Shown here in pieces: positions 32,969 through 38,334 of a DNA stretch of 64,000 nucleotides. Under the pieces are notes generated by a model. That model did not search any database. It was not told the DNA's origin and saw only the letters and a list, made by a program, of their open reading frames with translations. Source of the DNA: Candidatus Latescibacterota bacterium. Lineage in GTDB: Bacteria; Latescibacterota; UBA2968. Within the stretch, counting starts at the first letter, position 1. The number at the start of each line of letters is the position of its first letter. The stretch is from the NCBI GenBank assembly GCA_965204745.1, contig OZ242010.1, forward strand, positions 864,001-928,000. Reading direction: 5' to 3'. Made by a program: the position numbers and the translations under genes.

Positions 32969-33097
32969 GACTGACAACTGACTACTGACCACTGTATTCT
33001 GCCAACGGCTGTTCCCCGCAGGGATTTGTTGGGCGGACTGACCACTGACCACTGACCACTGACTACTGAATCACTGACCACTGACTACTGAATCACT
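32969..33097. repeat. Degenerate heptamer repeats (ACTGACC/ACTGACT)
   Basis: Directly visible. Confidence 0.8.
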
Positions 33098-33164
33098 GTT
33101 GGCATTGCACAGATCGAGAAATTTTGATATTCTGCATATTGTGCTCTGTTGAGAGGAATCCCCA

Positions 33165-35876
33165 ATGCGTTCTATCATCTTTTCCATCTGCTTTTTGCCC
33201 CTGCAAGCGCTGGCGAGTTCGCCGCCGTATCACAAAATCGCCGATGTGTCACTCGCGGGGACCCTCGCCCTACAGCACTATCGCCTCGCCAATGGCCTCC
33301 AGGTTGCGATAATCGAAGACGATACGCGCCCGGTCGTAACGTGCCACCTCGCCTATCGCGTGGGATCGGCGCACGAATTGCCCGGGCAGCAGGGCATGGC
33401 GCATCTCGTCGAGCACCTCGCGATGGACCGCACATATCTCGAATCCCTCGGCCTGTTGGGCGCGCCTCACGCCAATGCCAGCACCTCGCGCGATGGCACG
33501 AAGTACTACGCCACTGTGCCCAAAGCGCGGTTGGACACGCTCATCGCCTATTTTGCACGCGACATGACGCAATTCAATATTTCGCAAAAAGAATACGACC
33601 TCGAAAAAGAGGTCGTTTTGAGCGAATGGGCGCGCAGTGCCAAAAGTGCGCGCAGGTGGCTCTACAAAAAACTCTACGCACGCATGTTCGCGGGGCATCC
33701 CTACCAGTACGATATTTTGGGGCATCCCGATACCATTCGGGCTTTCACGTTGGAACGGGCTATCGCATTTCACGAGCGGTACTACGCGCCGAACAACGCC
33801 TGCCTCGCCATTGTCGGCGACGTGAAAGCCGCGGAGATTTTGCCCGTTGTGCTGCAACATTTTGCGGGCATCCCAAAGCGCGTGGGCCGCATTCACGCCG
33901 AAGTCGATACGTCCCAAGCCGCATCCATACCGCAGGATTCCATCGGCACCACGAGCGGGCTGCATTCCAGAGTTTGGGGCGTTTGGAAAATTCCCATCGA
34001 CAGGCATTCCGACTCCCGCGCCTTGTACTTGTTTGACCAAGTCCTCTTCGAGGGCGAATATTCCCCTGCGGATCAAAAATTGGTCGGATCCGGAAAAGCC
34101 CTTTGGATCCGTTCCCATTTTTTGAGCCTGCGCGACAGAGCACTGTATTACTACATCGCCGAACTGCCTTCGGGCGCGCCTTATGAACCCGTGCGCGACG
34201 CCATGCAACAGACCATTCAAACCACAATCGACTCGCTATCAGAAGAAAATTTACTGCTGGCGCGAAACGAAGCGCGGCGAATCCTGTACCGCATGATGAT
34301 CAGCCAAACCCGGCTGGCAACCAACATTTCCAACGCCTTCATTCGCACCGATGACCCGGCCTACGGTCTCAAATGGATGCAGGGTTTCGACGGCATCACC
34401 GTAGCCGATGTTCGGCGCGTGGCAACGCGATATCTGTCGGGGCAACCGCCGCGCACCTTTGTCCTGACCGCGGTCACAGAACCGCCCTCTCGGCGCGCGT
34501 GGCTCTACGCGGGCATCGTTTGGATCATCATCGGCATCGTGGGATGCTGGTACTTGCGGCGGCACGTCCTCGCCGTCGGCGCGATGCTGATCGCCTGCAA
34601 CGCAGCAACCGCGGAAATCCCCAACCACAAAATGTACTATGTGCAAGACCTGCGCGTGCCGCAAACCGGGATTTCAATGGTGTATTTCACAGGAGGCCAC
34701 CGCCGAGAAACGCGGGACACCTGCGGCTTGACCTTTGCGTTTTACCGCCTGTATCCCCTCGCACTCCACGGGGACGACCTCAAAGAAATGGACCGGCTCG
34801 GCGCGGAGTTTTGGATCGACATTTCCGACCGCGCGGTCACTGTCGGCATCGCCACATTTAGCGAAAACTTGGATGCGGCCCTGCGACGCCTCAAAAAGAT
34901 GCTGGACAACCTCACCTTCTCAGAGGCACTGCTCGACCGGGAACGGGCGCGCATCATAGACGATTTTGAGGATCATATCGACGACCGCGAAACGACGGAG
35001 ACCTTTCGGTATCACCTGTACGAAGCCGAGGAAGACCGGCGGCGGGGCACGCGCACTGCGCTCGAAAATTTGACCGCAGAACACTTGCAGCGATTTTGGG
35101 ATCAAACCCTGCGCGCAAAGGTGCTGTATTTTAAGGTGACATCCGATCTCGGCGCAGCGGATATCGAACGCCACTTGCAGGTGATCGCGCATGGCCGCCC
35201 TCGAGATGGCTTTGCCCCGCATCCGCGCCCCAAACGCAAAACCATTGCGGGGTTGCGCGCCTTACTTTCTCCGTCTTCCCATGCGGCGGATTTTTGTCAC
35301 TGGATAACCAATGGCTTGCCACGCACAGATGCGGATTGGTTTGCACAAACCCTGTTGGTCGACGCGCTGAATCGCCTGTTGTTCACCCGGCTTCGAGAGC
35401 AAAACGGCTGGTGCTATTCGACCGGCGTGCGGATCGACACCTGGCCATCCCCACCCGTGTTGCGCTTTTGGGCCAACCCGCAAGGTGTGCATACCGCCAA
35501 ACTCATTCCCGAGATGTTTCGGCTGATCCACCACTGCTTGACCGAACCCGATTTCTGGCAACAAGTGGCGAAAAGCCGCGAAAGGCTCAAGCGCGCCTAC
35601 CATCTGCAACTCGGCCCGTTCGCGCGCCTCAATCAACAGGTGCGCTACGACCGCGATGGCGTGCCCATGCGTTCGCTCGCGGAGTTTGAATCCGCCATCG
35701 ATCAAGTGACGAAAGAAGACATCCGCCGCGTCTTCGGGCACTTCACAAACGACCGCGGCAAATTGCCGTTGCTAATGCTCTTTTACGGCAATTCCGACCG
35801 CATTCAAGACGCTTTGGAACATGAGGACATCCAACTGAAACCAACGATTTTCGGCCTCCAAACCCTGATAAAATGA
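33165..35876 (+). CDS. M16 (insulinase/pitrilysin) family zinc peptidase, two fused halves with internal hydrophobic segment
   Basis: Signal peptide; LANGL, VGSAHE, AHLVEH (HxxEH), NASTS, HPY...ILG, YYAPNNA; second half RLF..LREQNGWCYS. Confidence 0.88.
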   Translation: MRSIIFSICFLPLQALASSPPYHKIADVSLAGTLALQHYRLANGLQVAIIEDDTRPVVTCHLAYRVGSAHELPGQQGMAHLVEHLAMDRTYLESLGLLGAPHANASTSRDGTKYYATVPKARLDTLIAYFARDMTQFNISQKEYDLEKEVVLSEWARSAKSARRWLYKKLYARMFAGHPYQYDILGHPDTIRAFTLERAIAFHERYYAPNNACLAIVGDVKAAEILPVVLQHFAGIPKRVGRIHAEVDTSQAASIPQDSIGTTSGLHSRVWGVWKIPIDRHSDSRALYLFDQVLFEGEYSPADQKLVGSGKALWIRSHFLSLRDRALYYYIAELPSGAPYEPVRDAMQQTIQTTIDSLSEENLLLARNEARRILYRMMISQTRLATNISNAFIRTDDPAYGLKWMQGFDGITVADVRRVATRYLSGQPPRTFVLTAVTEPPSRRAWLYAGIVWIIIGIVGCWYLRRHVLAVGAMLIACNAATAEIPNHKMYYVQDLRVPQTGISMVYFTGGHRRETRDTCGLTFAFYRLYPLALHGDDLKEMDRLGAEFWIDISDRAVTVGIATFSENLDAALRRLKKMLDNLTFSEALLDRERARIIDDFEDHIDDRETTETFRYHLYEAEEDRRRGTRTALENLTAEHLQRFWDQTLRAKVLYFKVTSDLGAADIERHLQVIAHGRPRDGFAPHPRPKRKTIAGLRALLSPSSHAADFCHWITNGLPRTDADWFAQTLLVDALNRLLFTRLREQNGWCYSTGVRIDTWPSPPVLRFWANPQGVHTAKLIPEMFRLIHHCLTEPDFWQQVAKSRERLKRAYHLQLGPFARLNQQVRYDRDGVPMRSLAEFESAIDQVTKEDIRRVFGHFTNDRGKLPLLMLFYGNSDRIQDALEHEDIQLKPTIFGLQTLIK

Positions 35877-35939
35877 GTGATGCCGTGCAACCGGAGAACG
35901 ACGAGCCCTCGTCTATAGAAAAAAATCTTCGTTTATCCC

Positions 35940-35968
35940 TTGACGTTTCACTTGAACTTGGGTATGTT
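35940..35968 (+). promoter_or_regulatory. Sigma70-like promoter for hairpin RNA A
   Basis: TTGACG-N17-TATGTT. Confidence 0.6.
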
Positions 35969-35974
35969 TTCCAA

Positions 35975-36056
35975 ACAGCGGGTTGCCTCGCGTCTCTGTT
36001 TATTTTTCCCTCCCGATAAATAGGGCGCCTCGATGGGTGGCAACCCGCTTTTTTTT
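35975..36056 (+). ncRNA. Putative small hairpin RNA A (~80 nt) with UUUCCCUCCC loop
   Basis: AGCGGGTTGCC/GGCAACCCGCT outer stem, inner stem with G-U pairs on + strand, T8 tail, own promoter; may double as terminator for the M16 gene. Confidence 0.55.
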
Positions 36057-36057
36057 G

Positions 36058-36086
36058 TTGACATGCCCATTTTTGCGTCTTATTTT
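36058..36086 (+). promoter_or_regulatory. Sigma70-like promoter for hairpin RNA B
   Basis: TTGACA-N17-TATTTT. Confidence 0.65.
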
Positions 36087-36092
36087 CACCGC

Positions 36093-36145
36093 GCAATACC
36101 CAAGCCTTCAAGGGGATCGGGAGGGACCCCTTGAAGGCTTTTTTT
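36093..36145 (+). ncRNA. Putative small hairpin RNA B (~50 nt) with AUCGGGAGGGA loop
   Basis: Perfect 14-bp stem AAGCCTTCAAGGGG/CCCCTTGAAGGCTT, T7 tail, own promoter, no ORF. Confidence 0.55.
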
Positions 36146-36256
36146 CAGCGCGTATCTCCACGCGATTGTCACTTGACGGAAACGCGGGCGTAACATCGCT
36201 TGGGTATTTTCGCCTGCAAATAGCGAGCGTTCATCACCAAAGAGAAAGGAGGCGAT

Positions 36257-36421
36257 ATGCGTACCGAATGCGTTGATCCGCGTTACGAATTGAATCCCAA
36301 TCAAACGCATTGGATTTACAGCGCGGATGATGTGCGGTCTTTGCTCGAATTTATCGAGCGCGGAGAAAACGACGAAGCCAAGCGCGTTTTGCAAGACCAC
36401 AAGCGGTGTCAGTCAGTTTGA
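36257..36421 (+). CDS. Small hypothetical protein, 54 aa (below ORF-track cutoff)
   Basis: AAAGGAGG RBS then MRTECVDPRYELNPNQTHWIYSADDVRSLLEFIERGENDEAKRVLQDHKRCQSV*; terminator at 36534-36559. Confidence 0.65.
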   Translation: MRTECVDPRYELNPNQTHWIYSADDVRSLLEFIERGENDEAKRVLQDHKRCQSV

Positions 36422-36533
36422 CCTGTGGCGGCGGAGAAAACGACGAAGCCAAGCGCGTTTTGCAAGAGCGAAGATTTCCGCTCGGCTGGCAGTCCAATAA
36501 GTGAGGATATGGGCAGGAAGGGCAATGCAGATC

Positions 36534-36559
36534 AACTCCCCAGCACGGGAGTTTTTTTT
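36534..36559 (+). terminator. Intrinsic terminator after small ORF
   Basis: AACTCCC-CAGCAC-GGGAGTT followed by T-run. Confidence 0.75.
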
Positions 36560-36563
36560 GTAC

Positions 36564-36660
36564 AAAAAAAGAGGCATTGGTCGGGAGGGAATAACCAACG
36601 CCTCAGAGGGATACAAAAAAAACGGCGCTGACTTAGCCGGGGTATAGAAGTCAACGCCGA
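36564..36660 (-). ncRNA. Two tandem minus-strand hairpin/poly-U units (D with UAUUCCCUCCCG loop; E with CUAUACCCCGGCU loop)
   Basis: Stems 36571-36604 and 36623-36659 each have an A/C mismatch on + that is a G-U pair on -, and each is followed by U7-8 on -; no minus-strand gene upstream. Confidence 0.5.
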
Positions 36661-36831
36661 TATTGCGACTCGCTTTGTCGCATGGTCTTTTACGTCTTAT
36701 ATGCGGGGAAAGTTCCCTCGAGATGCGATTTTTTTTGCACGCAGACCTTTTGTGACTGCGCGCTTTCTTTGTTTTTCGTTCTGATATATATTGTCGCGCT
36801 TTTTGTCGTGTATTCTGCAGGAGGAGGAGCT

Positions 36832-38334
36832 ATGGCGCGTGGGCGAAAATTGGAACGCTGGGGCCTGTGGCTCGGCCCGGTGATCGGGCTGGGAGTCGCG
36901 GTTTTTGGCGACCTCGAGCCGGGCAAACCCGAAGTGACCCTGACCGCGGGGGCGGCTTGTTGGATGGCGATCTGGTGGATGACAGAGGCCGTGCCCCTCG
37001 CGGCCACCGCGCTACTGCCCGTGGTGCTCTTTCCCCTGCTGGGCATTATGAATGGGAGAGAGGTCGCGCCGCTGTATTTTAACCACATCATTTTTTTATT
37101 TGTCGGCGGCTTTATGGTCGCCTTGGCGATGCAGCGTTGGAATTTGCACCGGCGAATTGCCCTGCGTCTGCTGCTCGTTTTTGGTGGGTGTCCGCGCTGC
37201 ATCCTGACGGGATTCATGCTGGCAACCGCGTTCTTGTCCATGTGGATTTCCAACACGGCTACAACGATGATGATGGTACCGATAGCCATGGCCATCGTGG
37301 CCAAGATGGAGGAACAGCACGCGGCCTTTGGCCCGGCTGTGTTTTTGGGCGTGGCTTATGCGGCTTCCATCGGGGGGTTTGCAACGCTCGTGGGCACCCC
37401 GCCCAACTTGTCGTTTGCGCGGATTTTAGCCATCCATTTTCCCCGAGCACCCGAGATTTCGTTTGCGACTTGGTTTGCGTTCGCGTTGCCCTTGTCGTGC
37501 GCGATGCTCCTGTGCGCGTGGGGCGTGCTGTGTGTCGCGTTTGGCATCCGCGGGCGCGGCGAGGACATCGACTTGACCGCGGTGGAAATGCAATACGCCG
37601 AGTTGGGGCGAATGTCGTTTGCCGAGAAAATCGTGCTGACCGATTTCGCGTTGCTGGCATTTTTTTGGTTGTCCCGCCGCCCGGTTCAAATTGGCGATTG
37701 GACCCTGCCGGGCTGGTCTCAGCTTTTTGAATCCGCCGAGTTGATGACCGATGGCTCGGTCGCCATGGCGATGGCCTTGGTCTTGTTCGTCATTCCCGCC
37801 CGAGATGGCACGGGCACGCGCGTGATGAACTGGCAAACAGCGGGCAACTTGCCGTGGCACATCGTGTTGCTGATCGGCGGCGGATTCGCGCTGGCGAGTG
37901 GGTTCATCTCGTCCGGCTTGTCGCTTTGGTGCGCGCAACAGTTGAAAATTTTGGGCAGTGTGCATCCCCTGTTCTTGGTCGGCAGCCTGTGCGTGATGAT
38001 GACCTTTTTGACCGAACTGACCTCGAACACCGCGACTGCGGAAATGTTTCTCCCGGTCTTGGCATCGTTGGCCGTTGCGGTGAATGCCAATCCCCTGTTG
38101 CTGATGATCCCGGCGACCTTGTCGTGTTCCTGCGCGTTCATGCTACCCGTGGCGACCCCGCCCAATGCGATTGTGTTCGGCACAGACCGCGTATCCATGC
38201 GCGACATGGCCCGCACAGGCGTGGTGCTCAACTTGGTCGGAACCGTGCTGATCACCCTCGCTATAGCAACCCTGGGCCGCCTCGTGCTGGACATCGACCT
38301 CGGCATAATCCCCGACTGGGCGCAGATTCACTGA
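36832..38334 (+). CDS. SLC13/DASS family Na+:dicarboxylate/sulfate symporter
   Basis: WWMTEAVPL, LSMWISNTAT, GTPPN, ELTSNTATA, LPVATPPNA; GGAGGAGG RBS. Confidence 0.93.
   Translation: MARGRKLERWGLWLGPVIGLGVAVFGDLEPGKPEVTLTAGAACWMAIWWMTEAVPLAATALLPVVLFPLLGIMNGREVAPLYFNHIIFLFVGGFMVALAMQRWNLHRRIALRLLLVFGGCPRCILTGFMLATAFLSMWISNTATTMMMVPIAMAIVAKMEEQHAAFGPAVFLGVAYAASIGGFATLVGTPPNLSFARILAIHFPRAPEISFATWFAFALPLSCAMLLCAWGVLCVAFGIRGRGEDIDLTAVEMQYAELGRMSFAEKIVLTDFALLAFFWLSRRPVQIGDWTLPGWSQLFESAELMTDGSVAMAMALVLFVIPARDGTGTRVMNWQTAGNLPWHIVLLIGGGFALASGFISSGLSLWCAQQLKILGSVHPLFLVGSLCVMMTFLTELTSNTATAEMFLPVLASLAVAVNANPLLLMIPATLSCSCAFMLPVATPPNAIVFGTDRVSMRDMARTGVVLNLVGTVLITLAIATLGRLVLDIDLGIIPDWAQIH

What the first reader, a model, noticed from the sequence alone, without database searches (positions are those of the whole stretch)
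35940..36660. Cluster of small hairpin RNAs with mutually complementary loops around a small ORF
Seen: unit A (+; TTGACG-N17-TATGTT promoter, ~80-nt hairpin, U-tail) contains TCCCTCCCGAT at 36007-36017, mostly in its loop. Unit B (+; TTGACA-N17-TATTTT, perfect 14-bp stem, U-tail) has an 11-nt loop ATCGGGAGGGA (36116-36126), the exact reverse complement. Unit D (-; G-U pair and U-tail both indicate the minus strand) again displays TCCCTCCCGA (36581-36590). The three stems are unrelated in sequence, so only the loop motif is conserved. A fourth hairpin E lies next to D. Inference: a multi-RNA circuit in which anti-Shine-Dalgarno-like CCUCC sRNAs (A, D) are titrated by a GGAGG decoy (B) through kissing loops, possibly controlling the AAAGGAGG-led 54-aa ORF (type I TA-like) or sponging a GGA-binding protein such as CsrA. 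I know of no described family with this layout.
Basis: partly seen in the sequence, partly recalled or inferred. Interest (0 to 1): 0.85.

Follow-up and report, generated by a model that had tools for sequence, protein, structure and literature searches.

The report
Small RNAs with complementary hairpin loops
An intergenic region of an uncultured Latescibacterota bacterium holds several conserved small-RNA genes: some have C-rich loops that look like blockers of ribosome-binding sites, and one has a G-rich loop that is their exact complement and may act as their decoy.

Summary
TCCCTCCCGA occurs 8 times in the 5.48 Mb genome. Three copies lie within 600 bp here, each in the loop of a strong hairpin with a U-tail.

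All 20 same-genus genomes keep units A and B: promoters, stems with wobble or compensatory changes, and invariant loops. The A→B tandem recurs in three other genera with different neighbouring genes. With outgroups and a second paralog (A2), 18 of 24 A pairs covary.

- **The ORF is not the centre.** The 54-aa ORF is the remnant of an accessory cassette (RpoS-like sigma factor plus a 58-aa protein). Eleven of 20 relatives lack the cassette, and here a 71-bp duplication frameshifts the ORF.
- **Unit D looks decayed here.** It has lost its own ECF-type promoter and conserved 5' leader in this genome.
- **No chaperone candidates.** No CsrA, Hfq or ProQ was found.

Best reading: new stand-alone sRNAs of the known C-rich, anti-Shine-Dalgarno-like kind (A, D, A2, perhaps E), plus a G-rich decoy (B). 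No Rfam family matches. Expression and binding are untested.

The parts
35940..35968 (+). Promoter of sRNA A (TTGACG-N17-TATGTT)
   Evidence: Both hexamers are conserved in 21 of 21 genus sequences. TTGAC(A/G)-N17-TA..TT is found at the same place in 5 outgroup loci.
35975..36057 (+). sRNA A, about 83 nt. A long imperfect hairpin (35977-36049) with an apical loop carrying UCCCUCCCGAU (36007-36017), then an 8-U tail.
   Evidence: Fold. Consensus structure and U:G wobbles. Covariation with outgroups and paralog A2: 18 of 24 pairs, 96.3% of cells paired against about 45% when partners are slid. The transcript ends are inferred, not measured.
36058..36086 (+). Promoter of sRNA B (TTGACA-N17-TATTTT), abutting the A terminator
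   Evidence: Conserved in 21 of 21 genus sequences and in G024, G036, G119 and G122.
36093..36145 (+). sRNA B, about 53 nt. A short leader, a 14-bp hairpin (36102-36140) with the loop AUCGGGAGGGA (36116-36126), then a U tail.
   Evidence: I4, I7. 5 of 14 pairs show compensatory changes, and G:U wobbles far outnumber A:C pairs on the + strand. The transcript ends are inferred.
36147..36256 (+). Leader region shared with the 5' region of the RpoS-like sigma gene of relatives. Here it is fused directly to the small ORF.
   Evidence: the same out-of-frame 'LSLDRN...' read-through is conserved upstream of the sigma gene in L018, L021, L028, L029 and L036, and upstream of the small ORF in the window, L032 and L034.
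36257..36421 (+). 54-aa ORF. It is a frameshifted copy of a conserved 58-aa protein of unknown function and an accessory cassette remnant, not part of the RNA system.
   Evidence: No Pfam or NCBIfam family.
36360..36467 (+). 71-bp tandem duplication (36360-36396 = 36431-36467, 100% identical). It shifts the ORF's frame; the native C-terminus is encoded in the second copy.
   Evidence: (D1).
36534..36561 (+). Intrinsic terminator of the small-ORF cassette
   Evidence: Present only in genomes that keep the cassette or its remnant.
36564..36604 (-). Unit D: a 12-bp hairpin (36571-36604) with the loop AUUCCCUCCC (motif 36581-36590) and a 7-U tail (36564-36570). Here it lacks its own promoter and 5' leader.
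   Evidence: 8 of 12 pairs compensatory with outgroups; the distance from E to D is 54 nt here against 100 nt in most relatives.
36614..36683 (-). sRNA E, about 70 nt. A 5' hairpin F (36664-36682), hairpin E (36623-36659, loop CUAUACCCCGGCU), then an 8-U run (36615-36622).
   Evidence: The only non-Watson-Crick pairs are G:U on the minus strand (window and L025). F keeps its pairing with a different sequence in genus g9. The transcript ends are inferred.
36687..36717 (-). ECF-type promoter of E (GGGAAC-N17-CGTAAAAG on the minus strand)
   Evidence: GGAAC is present in 20 of 20 genus rows and 2 of 2 g9 rows. The -10 element is CGTA in 6 rows and AGTA in 14. The AAC/CGT hallmark comes from a PMC8103513 passage. 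Which sigma factor reads it is inferred.

Best explanation
The region is a cluster of stand-alone, trans-acting small-RNA genes of a Candidatus Latescibacterota genus.

- **A** is made from a sigma-70-type promoter. **D** has its own ECF-type promoter in most relatives. Each presents CCCUCCC in a hairpin loop. A paralog, **A2**, lies elsewhere in the genome and does the same.
- This sequence contains the anti-Shine-Dalgarno core CCUCC. These RNAs most likely pair with G-rich ribosome-binding sites (GGGAGG/GGAGGG) and block translation without a chaperone, as RsaE/RoxS, LhrC, 6C and the cuckoo RNAs do.
- **B** is a roughly 53-nt single hairpin made from its own sigma-70-type promoter directly after A. 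It presents GGGAGGG, complementary to the A loop over 10-12 nt. It most likely acts as a decoy that titrates A, D and A2 by loop-loop pairing.
- **E** is a further small RNA with a C-rich loop, made from an ECF-type promoter.
- The 54-aa ORF between B and D is a remnant of an unrelated accessory cassette.

What is shown: the sequences, folds, strands, conservation, covariation and loop complementarity. What is inferred: transcription, the promoter classes, pairing with ribosome-binding sites, and the decoy role.
For: Uniqueness:
- 3 of the genome's 8 copies of the 10-mer lie here, and they are the only CCCTCCC sites (of 418) in loops of stems of 9 bp or more.

Conservation:
- A and B are present in 20 of 20 same-genus genomes, with both promoters and both loops invariant while the stems change.
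- An exact D motif is present in 18 of the 20 relative loci. L034 carries a variant, and L021 stops at a contig end; R3 finds D on another contig of that genome.

Structure:
- A family: 18 of 24 pairs have changes on both sides, and 96.3% of cells are paired against 40-50% when partners are slid.
- D: 8 of 12 pairs compensatory. B: 5 of 14.
- G:U wobbles fix the strands.

Stand-alone units:
- A followed by a TTGACA promoter and a B hairpin with a (U/C)CGGGAG(G/A)GAG loop recurs in G024, G036, G119 and G122. Their neighbours differ: PurL, TPR proteins and an Rce1-like protein.
- E followed by D recurs in G119 and G122. D with its promoter recurs in G024.

Complementarity:
- Loop-loop duplexes are -22.7 (A:B), -24.1 (D:B) and -26.1 (A2:B) kcal/mol.
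- B was found only in genomes that also have A.

Setting:
- The 16S 3' end is ...GGAUCACCUCCUUUCU.
- 653 candidate start sites carry GGGAGG or GGAGGG.
- No Hfq, CsrA or ProQ was found. This fits chaperone-independent G-C-rich pairing as described for 6C (PMC6486639, abstract read).

Precedent for a G-rich sponge of C-rich sRNAs: RosA and RsaI (PMC8216469, passages read).
Against: - **No expression data.** No public run on record as RNA holds the stretch. This is reported under Tried and rejected only.
- **No co-variation between loops.** Both loops are invariant, so nothing distinguishes 'A pairs with B' from 'each is conserved for its own partner'.
- **Uncompensated mismatches.** G001 has A = CCCAAU against an unchanged B. 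G024 has B = GGGAGAG against unchanged A and D.
- **A without B.** G134 has A with no adjacent B on a 46-kb contig.
- **Steric limit.** A full 11-bp helix between two 11-nt loops is impossible without opening a stem, and B's stem is very stable.
- **No specific, conserved mRNA target found.** The 653 G-rich SD sites make the seed look promiscuous. The best extended match, at genome position 1358482-1358497, lies in an accessory region and is not strictly kept in G016.
- **ECF-type pattern not enriched genome-wide.** It occurs 22 times at spacing 16-17 against 11-18 at other spacings. The -10 element of E is AGT, not CGT, in 14 of 20 rows.
- **D looks decayed in this genome.** It has no promoter and no 5' leader.
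Confidence: 0.5

Rival explanations
1. A, D and A2 are anti-SD-like riboregulators, and B is an independent regulator. B's G-rich loop acts on something else, such as C-rich mRNA sites or the 16S anti-SD as an SD mimic. The A-B complementarity is then a by-product of both mimicking the two halves of the SD/anti-SD pair, and they do not regulate each other.
For: - The loops never co-vary, and mismatches in G001 and G024 are not compensated.
- G134 keeps A without an adjacent B.
- The B loop contains GGAGG, which matches the CCUCC of the 16S 3' end.
Against: - Complementarity extends beyond the SD/anti-SD core into CGA(U) and (A/G)UCG: 10-12 nt in four genera.
- B is always encoded directly after A, with its -35 box abutting A's terminator.
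- B was not found without A in the genomes searched.
Confidence: 0.2
2. The loops are recognition sites for a protein. This could be an RNA-binding protein that reads C-rich or G-rich loops, or a DNA-binding protein that reads TCCCTCCCGA. RNA-RNA pairing would then be irrelevant.
For: - The loop sequences are invariant over family-level divergence, which is more than base-pairing seeds usually require.
- The same 10-mer appears in both orientations on the DNA.
Against: - No CsrA, Hfq or ProQ was found.
- The motif always sits in the loop of a hairpin whose stem covaries and shows strand-specific G:U pairs, followed by a U-run. This points to RNA, not duplex DNA.
- The other 5 genomic copies have no such context.
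Confidence: 0.1
3. The RNAs exist to control the adjacent cassette (the RpoS-like sigma factor and the small ORF) through its AAAGGAGG ribosome-binding site, or they form a type I toxin-antitoxin-like module with the ORF.
For: - The cassette, where present, sits exactly between B and D in 5 relatives with the sigma gene. Three relatives and the window keep the ORF only.
- sRNA control of rpoS is well known in enterobacteria (recalled, not checked here).
Against: - 11 of 20 relatives have B and D back to back, with no cassette, yet keep all the RNAs.
- Outgroup genera keep the A→B tandem beside unrelated genes.
- The sigma factor is an extra paralog found only in some genomes.
- The ORF product is hydrophilic, unlike membrane-active type I toxins, and is frameshifted here.
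- No RNA overlaps it in antisense.
Confidence: 0.05
4. These are ordinary intrinsic terminators or leftovers of the flanking genes (M16 peptidase, Na/sulfate-type symporter), and the motif recurs by chance or by local duplication.
For: Each hairpin has a U-run. A lies about 100 nt after the peptidase stop codon.
Against: - Each unit has its own conserved promoter in front.
- The stems are unrelated while the loops are identical, the opposite of what duplication would leave.
- The motif sits in strong hairpin loops nowhere else in the genome.
- The units travel with different neighbours in other genera.
Confidence: 0.03

Closest known systems
RoxS/RsaE and FsrA with the sponge RNAs RosA (B. subtilis) and RsaI (S. 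aureus)
   Same: - sRNAs whose C-rich unpaired regions bind G-rich ribosome-binding sites.
- A separate stand-alone sRNA from a sigma-A-type promoter whose G-rich regions are complementary to those C-rich regions and neutralises them.
Source: PMC8216469, passages read.
   Different: - No sequence or structure match: Rfam finds nothing even at E up to 10.
- RosA is about 229 nt with three G-rich regions. B is a single hairpin of about 53 nt with one G-rich loop.
- B is encoded immediately downstream of its presumed partner A.
- The phylum differs (Latescibacterota against Firmicutes).
- Nothing here has been tested experimentally.
Cuckoo / CcsR (RSs0680) and alpha-r14-type RNAs of Alphaproteobacteria
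   Same: - Hairpins with highly variable stems and one conserved anti-SD-like C-rich loop motif.
- Several copies per genome.
- Stress-sigma-dependent promoters (RpoHI/HII there, ECF-type here for D, E and A2).
- Different genomic neighbourhoods.
Source: PMC4615179, passages read.
   Different: - The cuckoo motif is CCUCCUCCC, and each transcript holds 2-4 adjacent hairpins that all carry it.
- Here each transcript carries the motif CCCUCCC (CCUCCCUCCC in most A copies) once.
- The complementary G-rich partner RNA has no counterpart in the passages I read.
- No Rfam hit.
LhrC1-5 of Listeria monocytogenes
   Same: - Multicopy sibling sRNAs, partly in tandem in one intergenic region.
- UCCC-type CU-rich motifs in loops and in the terminator.
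- Induced by envelope stress.
- Act on SD regions without needing Hfq.
Source: PMC4132741, passages read.
   Different: - LhrC copies are homologous to each other over their whole length. A and D share only the loop.
- Induction there is through LisRK, not an ECF-type promoter.
- That paper describes no G-rich partner.
6C sRNA of Actinobacteria
   Same: C-rich hairpin loops as direct, chaperone-independent binding sites, relying on multiple G-C pairs (PMC6486639, abstract read). This genome likewise shows no Hfq or ProQ.
   Different: No Rfam match to any family, 6C included. The architecture and the phylum both differ.

Membership tests
Any described RNA family (Rfam 15, 4227 models, including those for RsaE/RoxS, 6C, the cuckoo/alpha-r14 types and CsrB/RsmZ where curated) | Score at or above the family's gathering threshold | tested here: not met
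   0 matches in the 64-kb window at gathering thresholds. At E up to 10 on 35850-36800 there were only 5 weak matches to unrelated families (mir-239, a plastid 3'UTR, ncr1175, MIR4374), all far below threshold.
C-rich (anti-SD-like) trans-acting sRNAs, as a functional kind | A C-rich motif containing the anti-SD core, displayed in an unpaired loop of a stable hairpin, conserved while the stem varies | tested here: met
   The 16S 3' end is CCUCCUUUCU.
C-rich (anti-SD-like) trans-acting sRNAs, as a functional kind | An independent transcription unit (own promoter and terminator) | tested here: inconclusive
   Promoter-like and terminator-like sequences are present and conserved for A, B and E. 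D lacks a promoter in this genome. No transcript data are available.
C-rich (anti-SD-like) trans-acting sRNAs, as a functional kind | Base-pairs with ribosome-binding sites of mRNAs and represses them | not testable with these tools
   Only a crude scan was possible. It found 653 candidate starts with a GGGAGG/GGAGGG SD and no specific conserved target.
Sponge / decoy sRNA (RosA, RsaI type) | Unpaired G-rich region complementary to the C-rich seed of partner sRNAs | tested here: met
   The B loop is an exact complement of the A motif over 11 nt and of the D motif over 10 nt (I7 and D7). It is kept in 21 of 21 genus sequences and in 3 further genera, with one mismatch in G024.
Sponge / decoy sRNA (RosA, RsaI type) | Binds the partner sRNA in vivo and changes its activity or stability | not testable with these tools
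Cofold cannot model loop-loop pairing.
CsrB/RsmZ-type protein sponge | Many GGA-bearing hairpins in one RNA, and a CsrA/RsmA protein in the genome | tested here: not met
   B has one hairpin. PF02599 gave no match in the 97.65% complete genome, while the control genomes matched.
Type I toxin-antitoxin | A small hydrophobic membrane-active peptide gene, with an antisense or overlapping RNA that blocks its translation, kept together | tested here: not met
   The ORF product is rich in charged residues and has no hydrophobic stretch (sequence). 11 of 20 relatives that keep all the RNAs lack it. It is frameshifted here. No RNA overlaps it.
ECF-sigma-dependent promoter (for E, D and A2) | [quoted passage not shown] | tested here: inconclusive
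   - D: GGAAC-N17-CGTCTAA in 17 of 19 relatives with data and in 2 of 2 g9 genomes; TGAAAC-N17-CGTCTGA in g5.
- A2: GGAAC-N16-CGTTTAT in 6 of 6.
- E: GGAAC in 20 of 20 rows, but CGT in only 6 of 20.
- The pattern is not enriched genome-wide, and no cognate sigma factor was identified.

The most novel reading that the evidence does not exclude
A and B are a genetically linked sRNA and anti-sRNA pair whose loops mimic the two halves of the Shine-Dalgarno/anti-Shine-Dalgarno interaction.

B is a minimal one-hairpin decoy made constitutively next to A. It sets a threshold that the stress-induced (ECF-type promoter) C-rich sRNAs D, A2 and E must exceed before they can shut down G-rich ribosome-binding sites.

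This would be a chaperone-free, purely RNA-based thresholding circuit. It would be conserved across at least two families of an uncultured phylum in which no riboregulator has been described.
Probability: 0.3. Interest if true: 0.65.

Novelty: new member of a known kind. Interest (0 to 1): 0.5.

Why it matters
My one search for this found no paper that links Latescibacterota with sRNAs: terms 'Latescibacter' and 'sRNA', one hit judged irrelevant from its search listing only. Rfam has no model for these RNAs. They would therefore be the first candidate riboregulators of this uncultured phylum.

They also show that the 'C-rich seed plus G-rich sponge' logic, worked out in Firmicutes, has probably arisen independently in a very distant lineage that seems to lack Hfq, ProQ and CsrA.

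The small size of the parts makes the proposed pairing easy to test in vitro or in a heterologous host, even though the organism is uncultured: a decoy of about 53 nt and a regulator of about 83 nt, with 11 complementary loop bases.

The covariance models built here could be used to annotate these RNAs in metagenomes.

Tried and rejected
- **RNA-seq evidence.** The look-up of sequencing runs listed 5 holders from 2 studies, none on record as RNA: no RNA holder listed. I did not use read laying, because contigs of DNA runs cannot show transcripts.
- **Full-length duplexfold and cofold of A, D or A2 with B.** These were uninformative. duplexfold ignores intramolecular structure, and cofold cannot form kissing loops; it returned the two monomer folds.
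- **mRNA target scan.** Ranking 653 candidate starts by duplex energy gave mostly noise, driven by A2's GC-rich stem. No target stood out.
- **The five other genomic copies of the 10-mer.**
  - Only one, at 4580231, looks like a real ribosome-binding site, for a 1760-aa protein.
  - One lies inside a pyrophosphatase-like ORF.
  - The site at 1358482-1358497 is identical to A over 16 nt on the minus strand. It lies in a region found only in G000, G016 and weakly G011, and carries a G-to-A change in G016.
- **Sigma-70 promoter for D or E on the minus strand.** None was found, either here or in relative L030. This led to the ECF-type reading.
- **Genome-wide enrichment of GGAAC-N16/17-CGT[ACT][AT]A.** Not enriched, and no ECF sigma gene lies directly downstream of a hit.
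- **Weaker covariance-model hits.**
  - G150 (R1) and G089 (R2) were plain terminator hairpins without the motif.
  - The second-tier R3 hits in G010, G015 and G122:C44 were also plain terminators.
  - The G056 hit has a CCUCCC loop but lies in a different context and is doubtful.
  - I did not inspect the many other weak hits.
- **Inverted repeat I8.** B's leader at 36095-36105 against 36198-36208: the leader sequence is not conserved in relatives, so I treat it as chance.
- **Alignments A6 and A7** mix forward and reverse-strand hits of palindromic hairpins, so I did not use them for counts. A8 and A9 were made instead.
- **One call failed on a mistyped reference**. I repeated it after fetching the locus.
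- **Supplementary files of the cited papers were not seen.**
Full report
**Where this is.** The window is G000:C1:864001-928000 of a single-contig genome of 5,482,115 bases, 56.5% G+C and 97.65% complete. A motif scan of public genomes returned only records titled as Candidatus Latescibacterota or uncultured Latescibacteria MAGs (15 of 15 stretches). The organism therefore belongs to that uncultured phylum. The finding lies between the stop codon of a 903-aa M16 peptidase gene (33165-35876, +) and the start of a Na/sulfate-symporter-family gene (about 36832-38334, +).

**1.
- All coordinates are correct.
- A folds at -34.8, B at -28.0, D at -14.3 and E at -18.2 kcal/mol. Each has z about -4.5 to -5, and 0 of 200 shuffles fold as well.
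- The 11-mer of A (36007-36017) and the loop of B (36116-36126) are exact reverse complements. The 10-mer recurs in D (I7, D7).
- The 10-mer occurs 8 times in the genome, and 3 of them are here. The other 5 are not in hairpins.
- Of 418 CCCTCCC sites on both strands, only these three lie in loops closed by 9 or more base pairs.

**2. Conservation in the genus.**
- All 20 same-genus genomes match the region.
- In all 21 sequences the order CCCTCCC then GGGAGGG is kept.
- Both hexamers of both promoters are conserved, and both loops are invariant, while the stems change.
- RNAalifold supports the hairpins. Wobble pairs fix the strands:
  - A has U:G or G:U at four positions in 15-20 of 21 sequences. 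These would be C:A on the other strand.
  - B has U:G or G:U in many sequences, against A:C in 2.
  - D has U:G at three positions on the minus strand.

**3. The ORF is a bystander.**
- The distance from B to D is 53-57 nt in 11 of 20 relatives. There the two terminators stand back to back across a shared A/T run.
- Five relatives (L018, L021, L028, L029, L036) carry a 1.2-4.2 kb insert that starts with a 279-aa RpoS/RpoD-like sigma factor. It is split in L029. The best NCBIfam rows are RpoS models, below their cut-offs, and Pfam finds regions 2 and 4. A 58-aa ORF follows the sigma gene.
- The sigma factor is an extra paralog present only in some genomes.
- Three relatives (L017, L032, L034) and the window keep only the small ORF. 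In the window, L032 and L034 it is fused to what is the sigma gene's upstream region elsewhere. L022 keeps only a remnant.
- In the window a 71-bp tandem duplication (36360-36396 = 36431-36467) shifts the frame. The 54-aa product has a foreign tail, and the native ERRFPLGWQSNK end is encoded in the second copy.
- The protein is hydrophilic and matches no family.
- A type I TA reading, or a circuit built around this ORF, is therefore not supported.

**4. Wider distribution.** Covariance models of A, B and D were run on 151 genomes sampled from the phylum.

| Model | Genus g1 | Hits outside the genus (E-value) |
|---|---|---|
| A (R1) | 19 of 19 sampled, plus G000 | G024 7e-13, G134 2e-11, G036 3e-10, G122 3e-9, G119 4e-7 |
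| B (R2) | 19 of 19 | G122, G024, G119 (4e-6 to 1e-5) |
| D (R3) | 19 of 19 | G024, G122, G119 (1e-8 to 2e-7); doubtful in G056 |

- The five outside hits for A cover four further genera in two families.
- In G024, G036, G119 and G122, A is again followed by a TTGACA promoter and a hairpin whose loop reads (U/C)CGGGAG(G/A)GAG. G134 has A without an adjacent B.
- The neighbours of these units differ from those here: PurL, TPR proteins and an Rce1-like protein. The units are therefore stand-alone genes, not cis elements of the peptidase or the symporter.
- Every sampled genus genome also has a second A-like RNA. In this genome it is A2 at G000:C1:1934839-1934929 (+), with the loop GUUCCCUCCCGCC and a U-tail.
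- With outgroups and A2, the A family shows changes on both sides at 18 of 24 pairs. 96.3% of cells are paired, against 40-50% when partners are slid. 0 of 500 shuffles reach any of the five measures. That alignment has 34 rows, 2 of which are reverse-strand hits, and it was fitted to the model.
- D shows compensatory changes at 8 of 12 pairs (I left out the degenerate copy L034). B shows them at 5 of 14.

**5. Promoters of the minus-strand units.**
- No sigma-70-like promoter precedes D or E.
- Upstream of E, all 20 genus rows and both g9 rows have GGAAC. Seventeen bases on comes CGTA in 6 rows or AGTA in 14. The RNA would then begin at a small 5' hairpin (36664-36682) that keeps its pairing with a different sequence in g9.
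- Between E and D, 17 of 19 relatives with data and both g9 genomes have GGAAC-N17-CGTCTAA, followed by a conserved leader ACCAUGCAACAUCCC. G024 has TGAAAC-N17-CGTCTGA.
- A2 is preceded by GGAAC-N16-CGTTTAT in 6 of 6 loci examined.
- AAC at -35 and CGT at -10 are given as hallmarks of ECF sigma promoters in a review (PMC8103513, passage read).
- I therefore infer that D, E and A2 depend on a stress (ECF) sigma factor, while A and B use the housekeeping type.
- Caveats: the pattern is not enriched genome-wide, and no cognate sigma factor was found.
- In this window the D promoter and leader are missing: the distance from E to D is 54 nt instead of 100. They are altered in G016, and the D hairpin itself is degenerate in G018. 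In this clade D looks like a decaying copy. If it is transcribed here, that would be by read-through of E's terminator.

**6. Mechanism.**
- The 16S rRNA ends ...GGAUCACCUCCUUUCU. The loops of A, D and A2 therefore contain the anti-SD core, and the loop of B contains an SD-like GGAGG.
- The genome has at least 653 candidate starts preceded by GGGAGG or GGAGGG.
- No Hfq, CsrA or ProQ domain was found, although the control genomes gave hits.
- The best-supported reading is that A, D and A2 are chaperone-independent riboregulators that occlude G-rich ribosome-binding sites, and that B is a decoy for them.
- Loop-only duplexes are -22.7 to -26.1 kcal/mol.
- A's upper stem next to the loop is made of A-U and G-U pairs, so a kissing contact could spread. 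B's stem is G-C rich.
- Against this reading:
  - There are no transcripts or binding data.
  - The loops do not co-vary.
  - There are two uncompensated mismatches (G001, G024).
  - One genome has A but no adjacent B.
  - No specific conserved mRNA target emerged.
- I put the whole model at 0.5. Its parts I estimate as follows: A and B are real expressed sRNAs, about 0.85; the C-rich loops act on G-rich sites, about 0.6; B acts on A, D or A2, about 0.45.

**7. Comparison with known systems.**
- The kind is known:
  - C-rich sRNAs RoxS and FsrA with the G-rich sponge RosA, and RsaI with RsaE, RsaD and RsaG (PMC8216469, passages).
  - 6C (PMC6486639, abstract).
  - Cuckoo/CcsR RNAs with CCUCCUCCC loops, variable stems and RpoH-type promoters (PMC4615179, passages).
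  - LhrC1-5, which are multicopy, partly tandem, carry UCCC motifs and respond to envelope stress (PMC4132741, passages).
- None of these is a homologue. Rfam gives nothing at gathering thresholds and only noise at E up to 10.
- Differences from the known systems:
  - The decoy is a single hairpin of about 53 nt, encoded directly downstream of its presumed partner.
  - Each regulator shows the motif once.
  - The lineage is an uncultured phylum. My one search for such work found no relevant paper.
- I file it as a new member of a known kind.

**8. Verdict.**
- Interest is moderate, at 0.5. It is a clean, deeply conserved and easily testable sRNA and anti-sRNA candidate in an unexplored phylum, but its logic already has precedents and there is no expression evidence yet.

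Noticed in passing
G000:C1:1934784-1934929 (+), outside the window; locus L064: This is A2, a second A-like sRNA. It has the loop GUUCCCUCCCGCC and a U-tail. It is preceded by a conserved GGGAAC-N16-CGTTTAT (ECF-type) element. A TTGACA promoter follows, then a gene whose product begins like a FAD-binding subunit of a molybdopterin dehydrogenase (my reading of the translation, not checked against Pfam). R1 finds it in every sampled genus genome.
   Followed up: partly
L018:800-1636 (+) and the equivalent places in L021, L028, L029 and L036: An accessory 279-aa RpoS/RpoD-like sigma factor gene with a downstream 58-aa ORF sits exactly between sRNAs B and D in 5 of 20 relatives. It is split in L029. 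In the window only its upstream region and the small ORF remain.
   Followed up: partly
window 36360-36467: A 71-bp perfect tandem duplication inside the small ORF shifts the reading frame.
   Followed up: yes
G000:C1:1358482-1358497 (locus L090 1983-1998): A 16-nt stretch is identical on the minus strand to the loop and 3' upper stem of A (UCCCUCCCGAUAAAUA). The plus strand is therefore perfectly complementary to A. It lies in a region found only in G000, G016 and weakly G011, and has one G-to-A change in G016. It could be an accessory target or a fragment of another copy.
   Followed up: partly
window 33037-33098 and 32970-32994: Heptamer tandem repeats, (ACTGACC)n with about 7.7 copies, lie just upstream of the M16 peptidase gene. 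A similar repeat-derived reading (SVVSGQWSVVS) turned up near genome position 2111500 in the output.
   Followed up: no
L078 (G056:C83:7250-8150): A distant Latescibacterota genome has a hairpin with an AUAUCCUCCCG loop directly upstream of a strong ribosome-binding site. Just before it lies a second hairpin pairing GGGCAUAUCCUCCCC with GGGGGGAGGAUAUGCCC. This may be a cis-acting SD-sequestering leader rather than a D homologue.
   Followed up: no
L027 (G011) and L017 (G001), between E and D: About 150 extra bases are inserted between E and the D promoter in these two genomes: the distance from E to D is 244-248 nt instead of 100. I did not examine the content.
   Followed up: no
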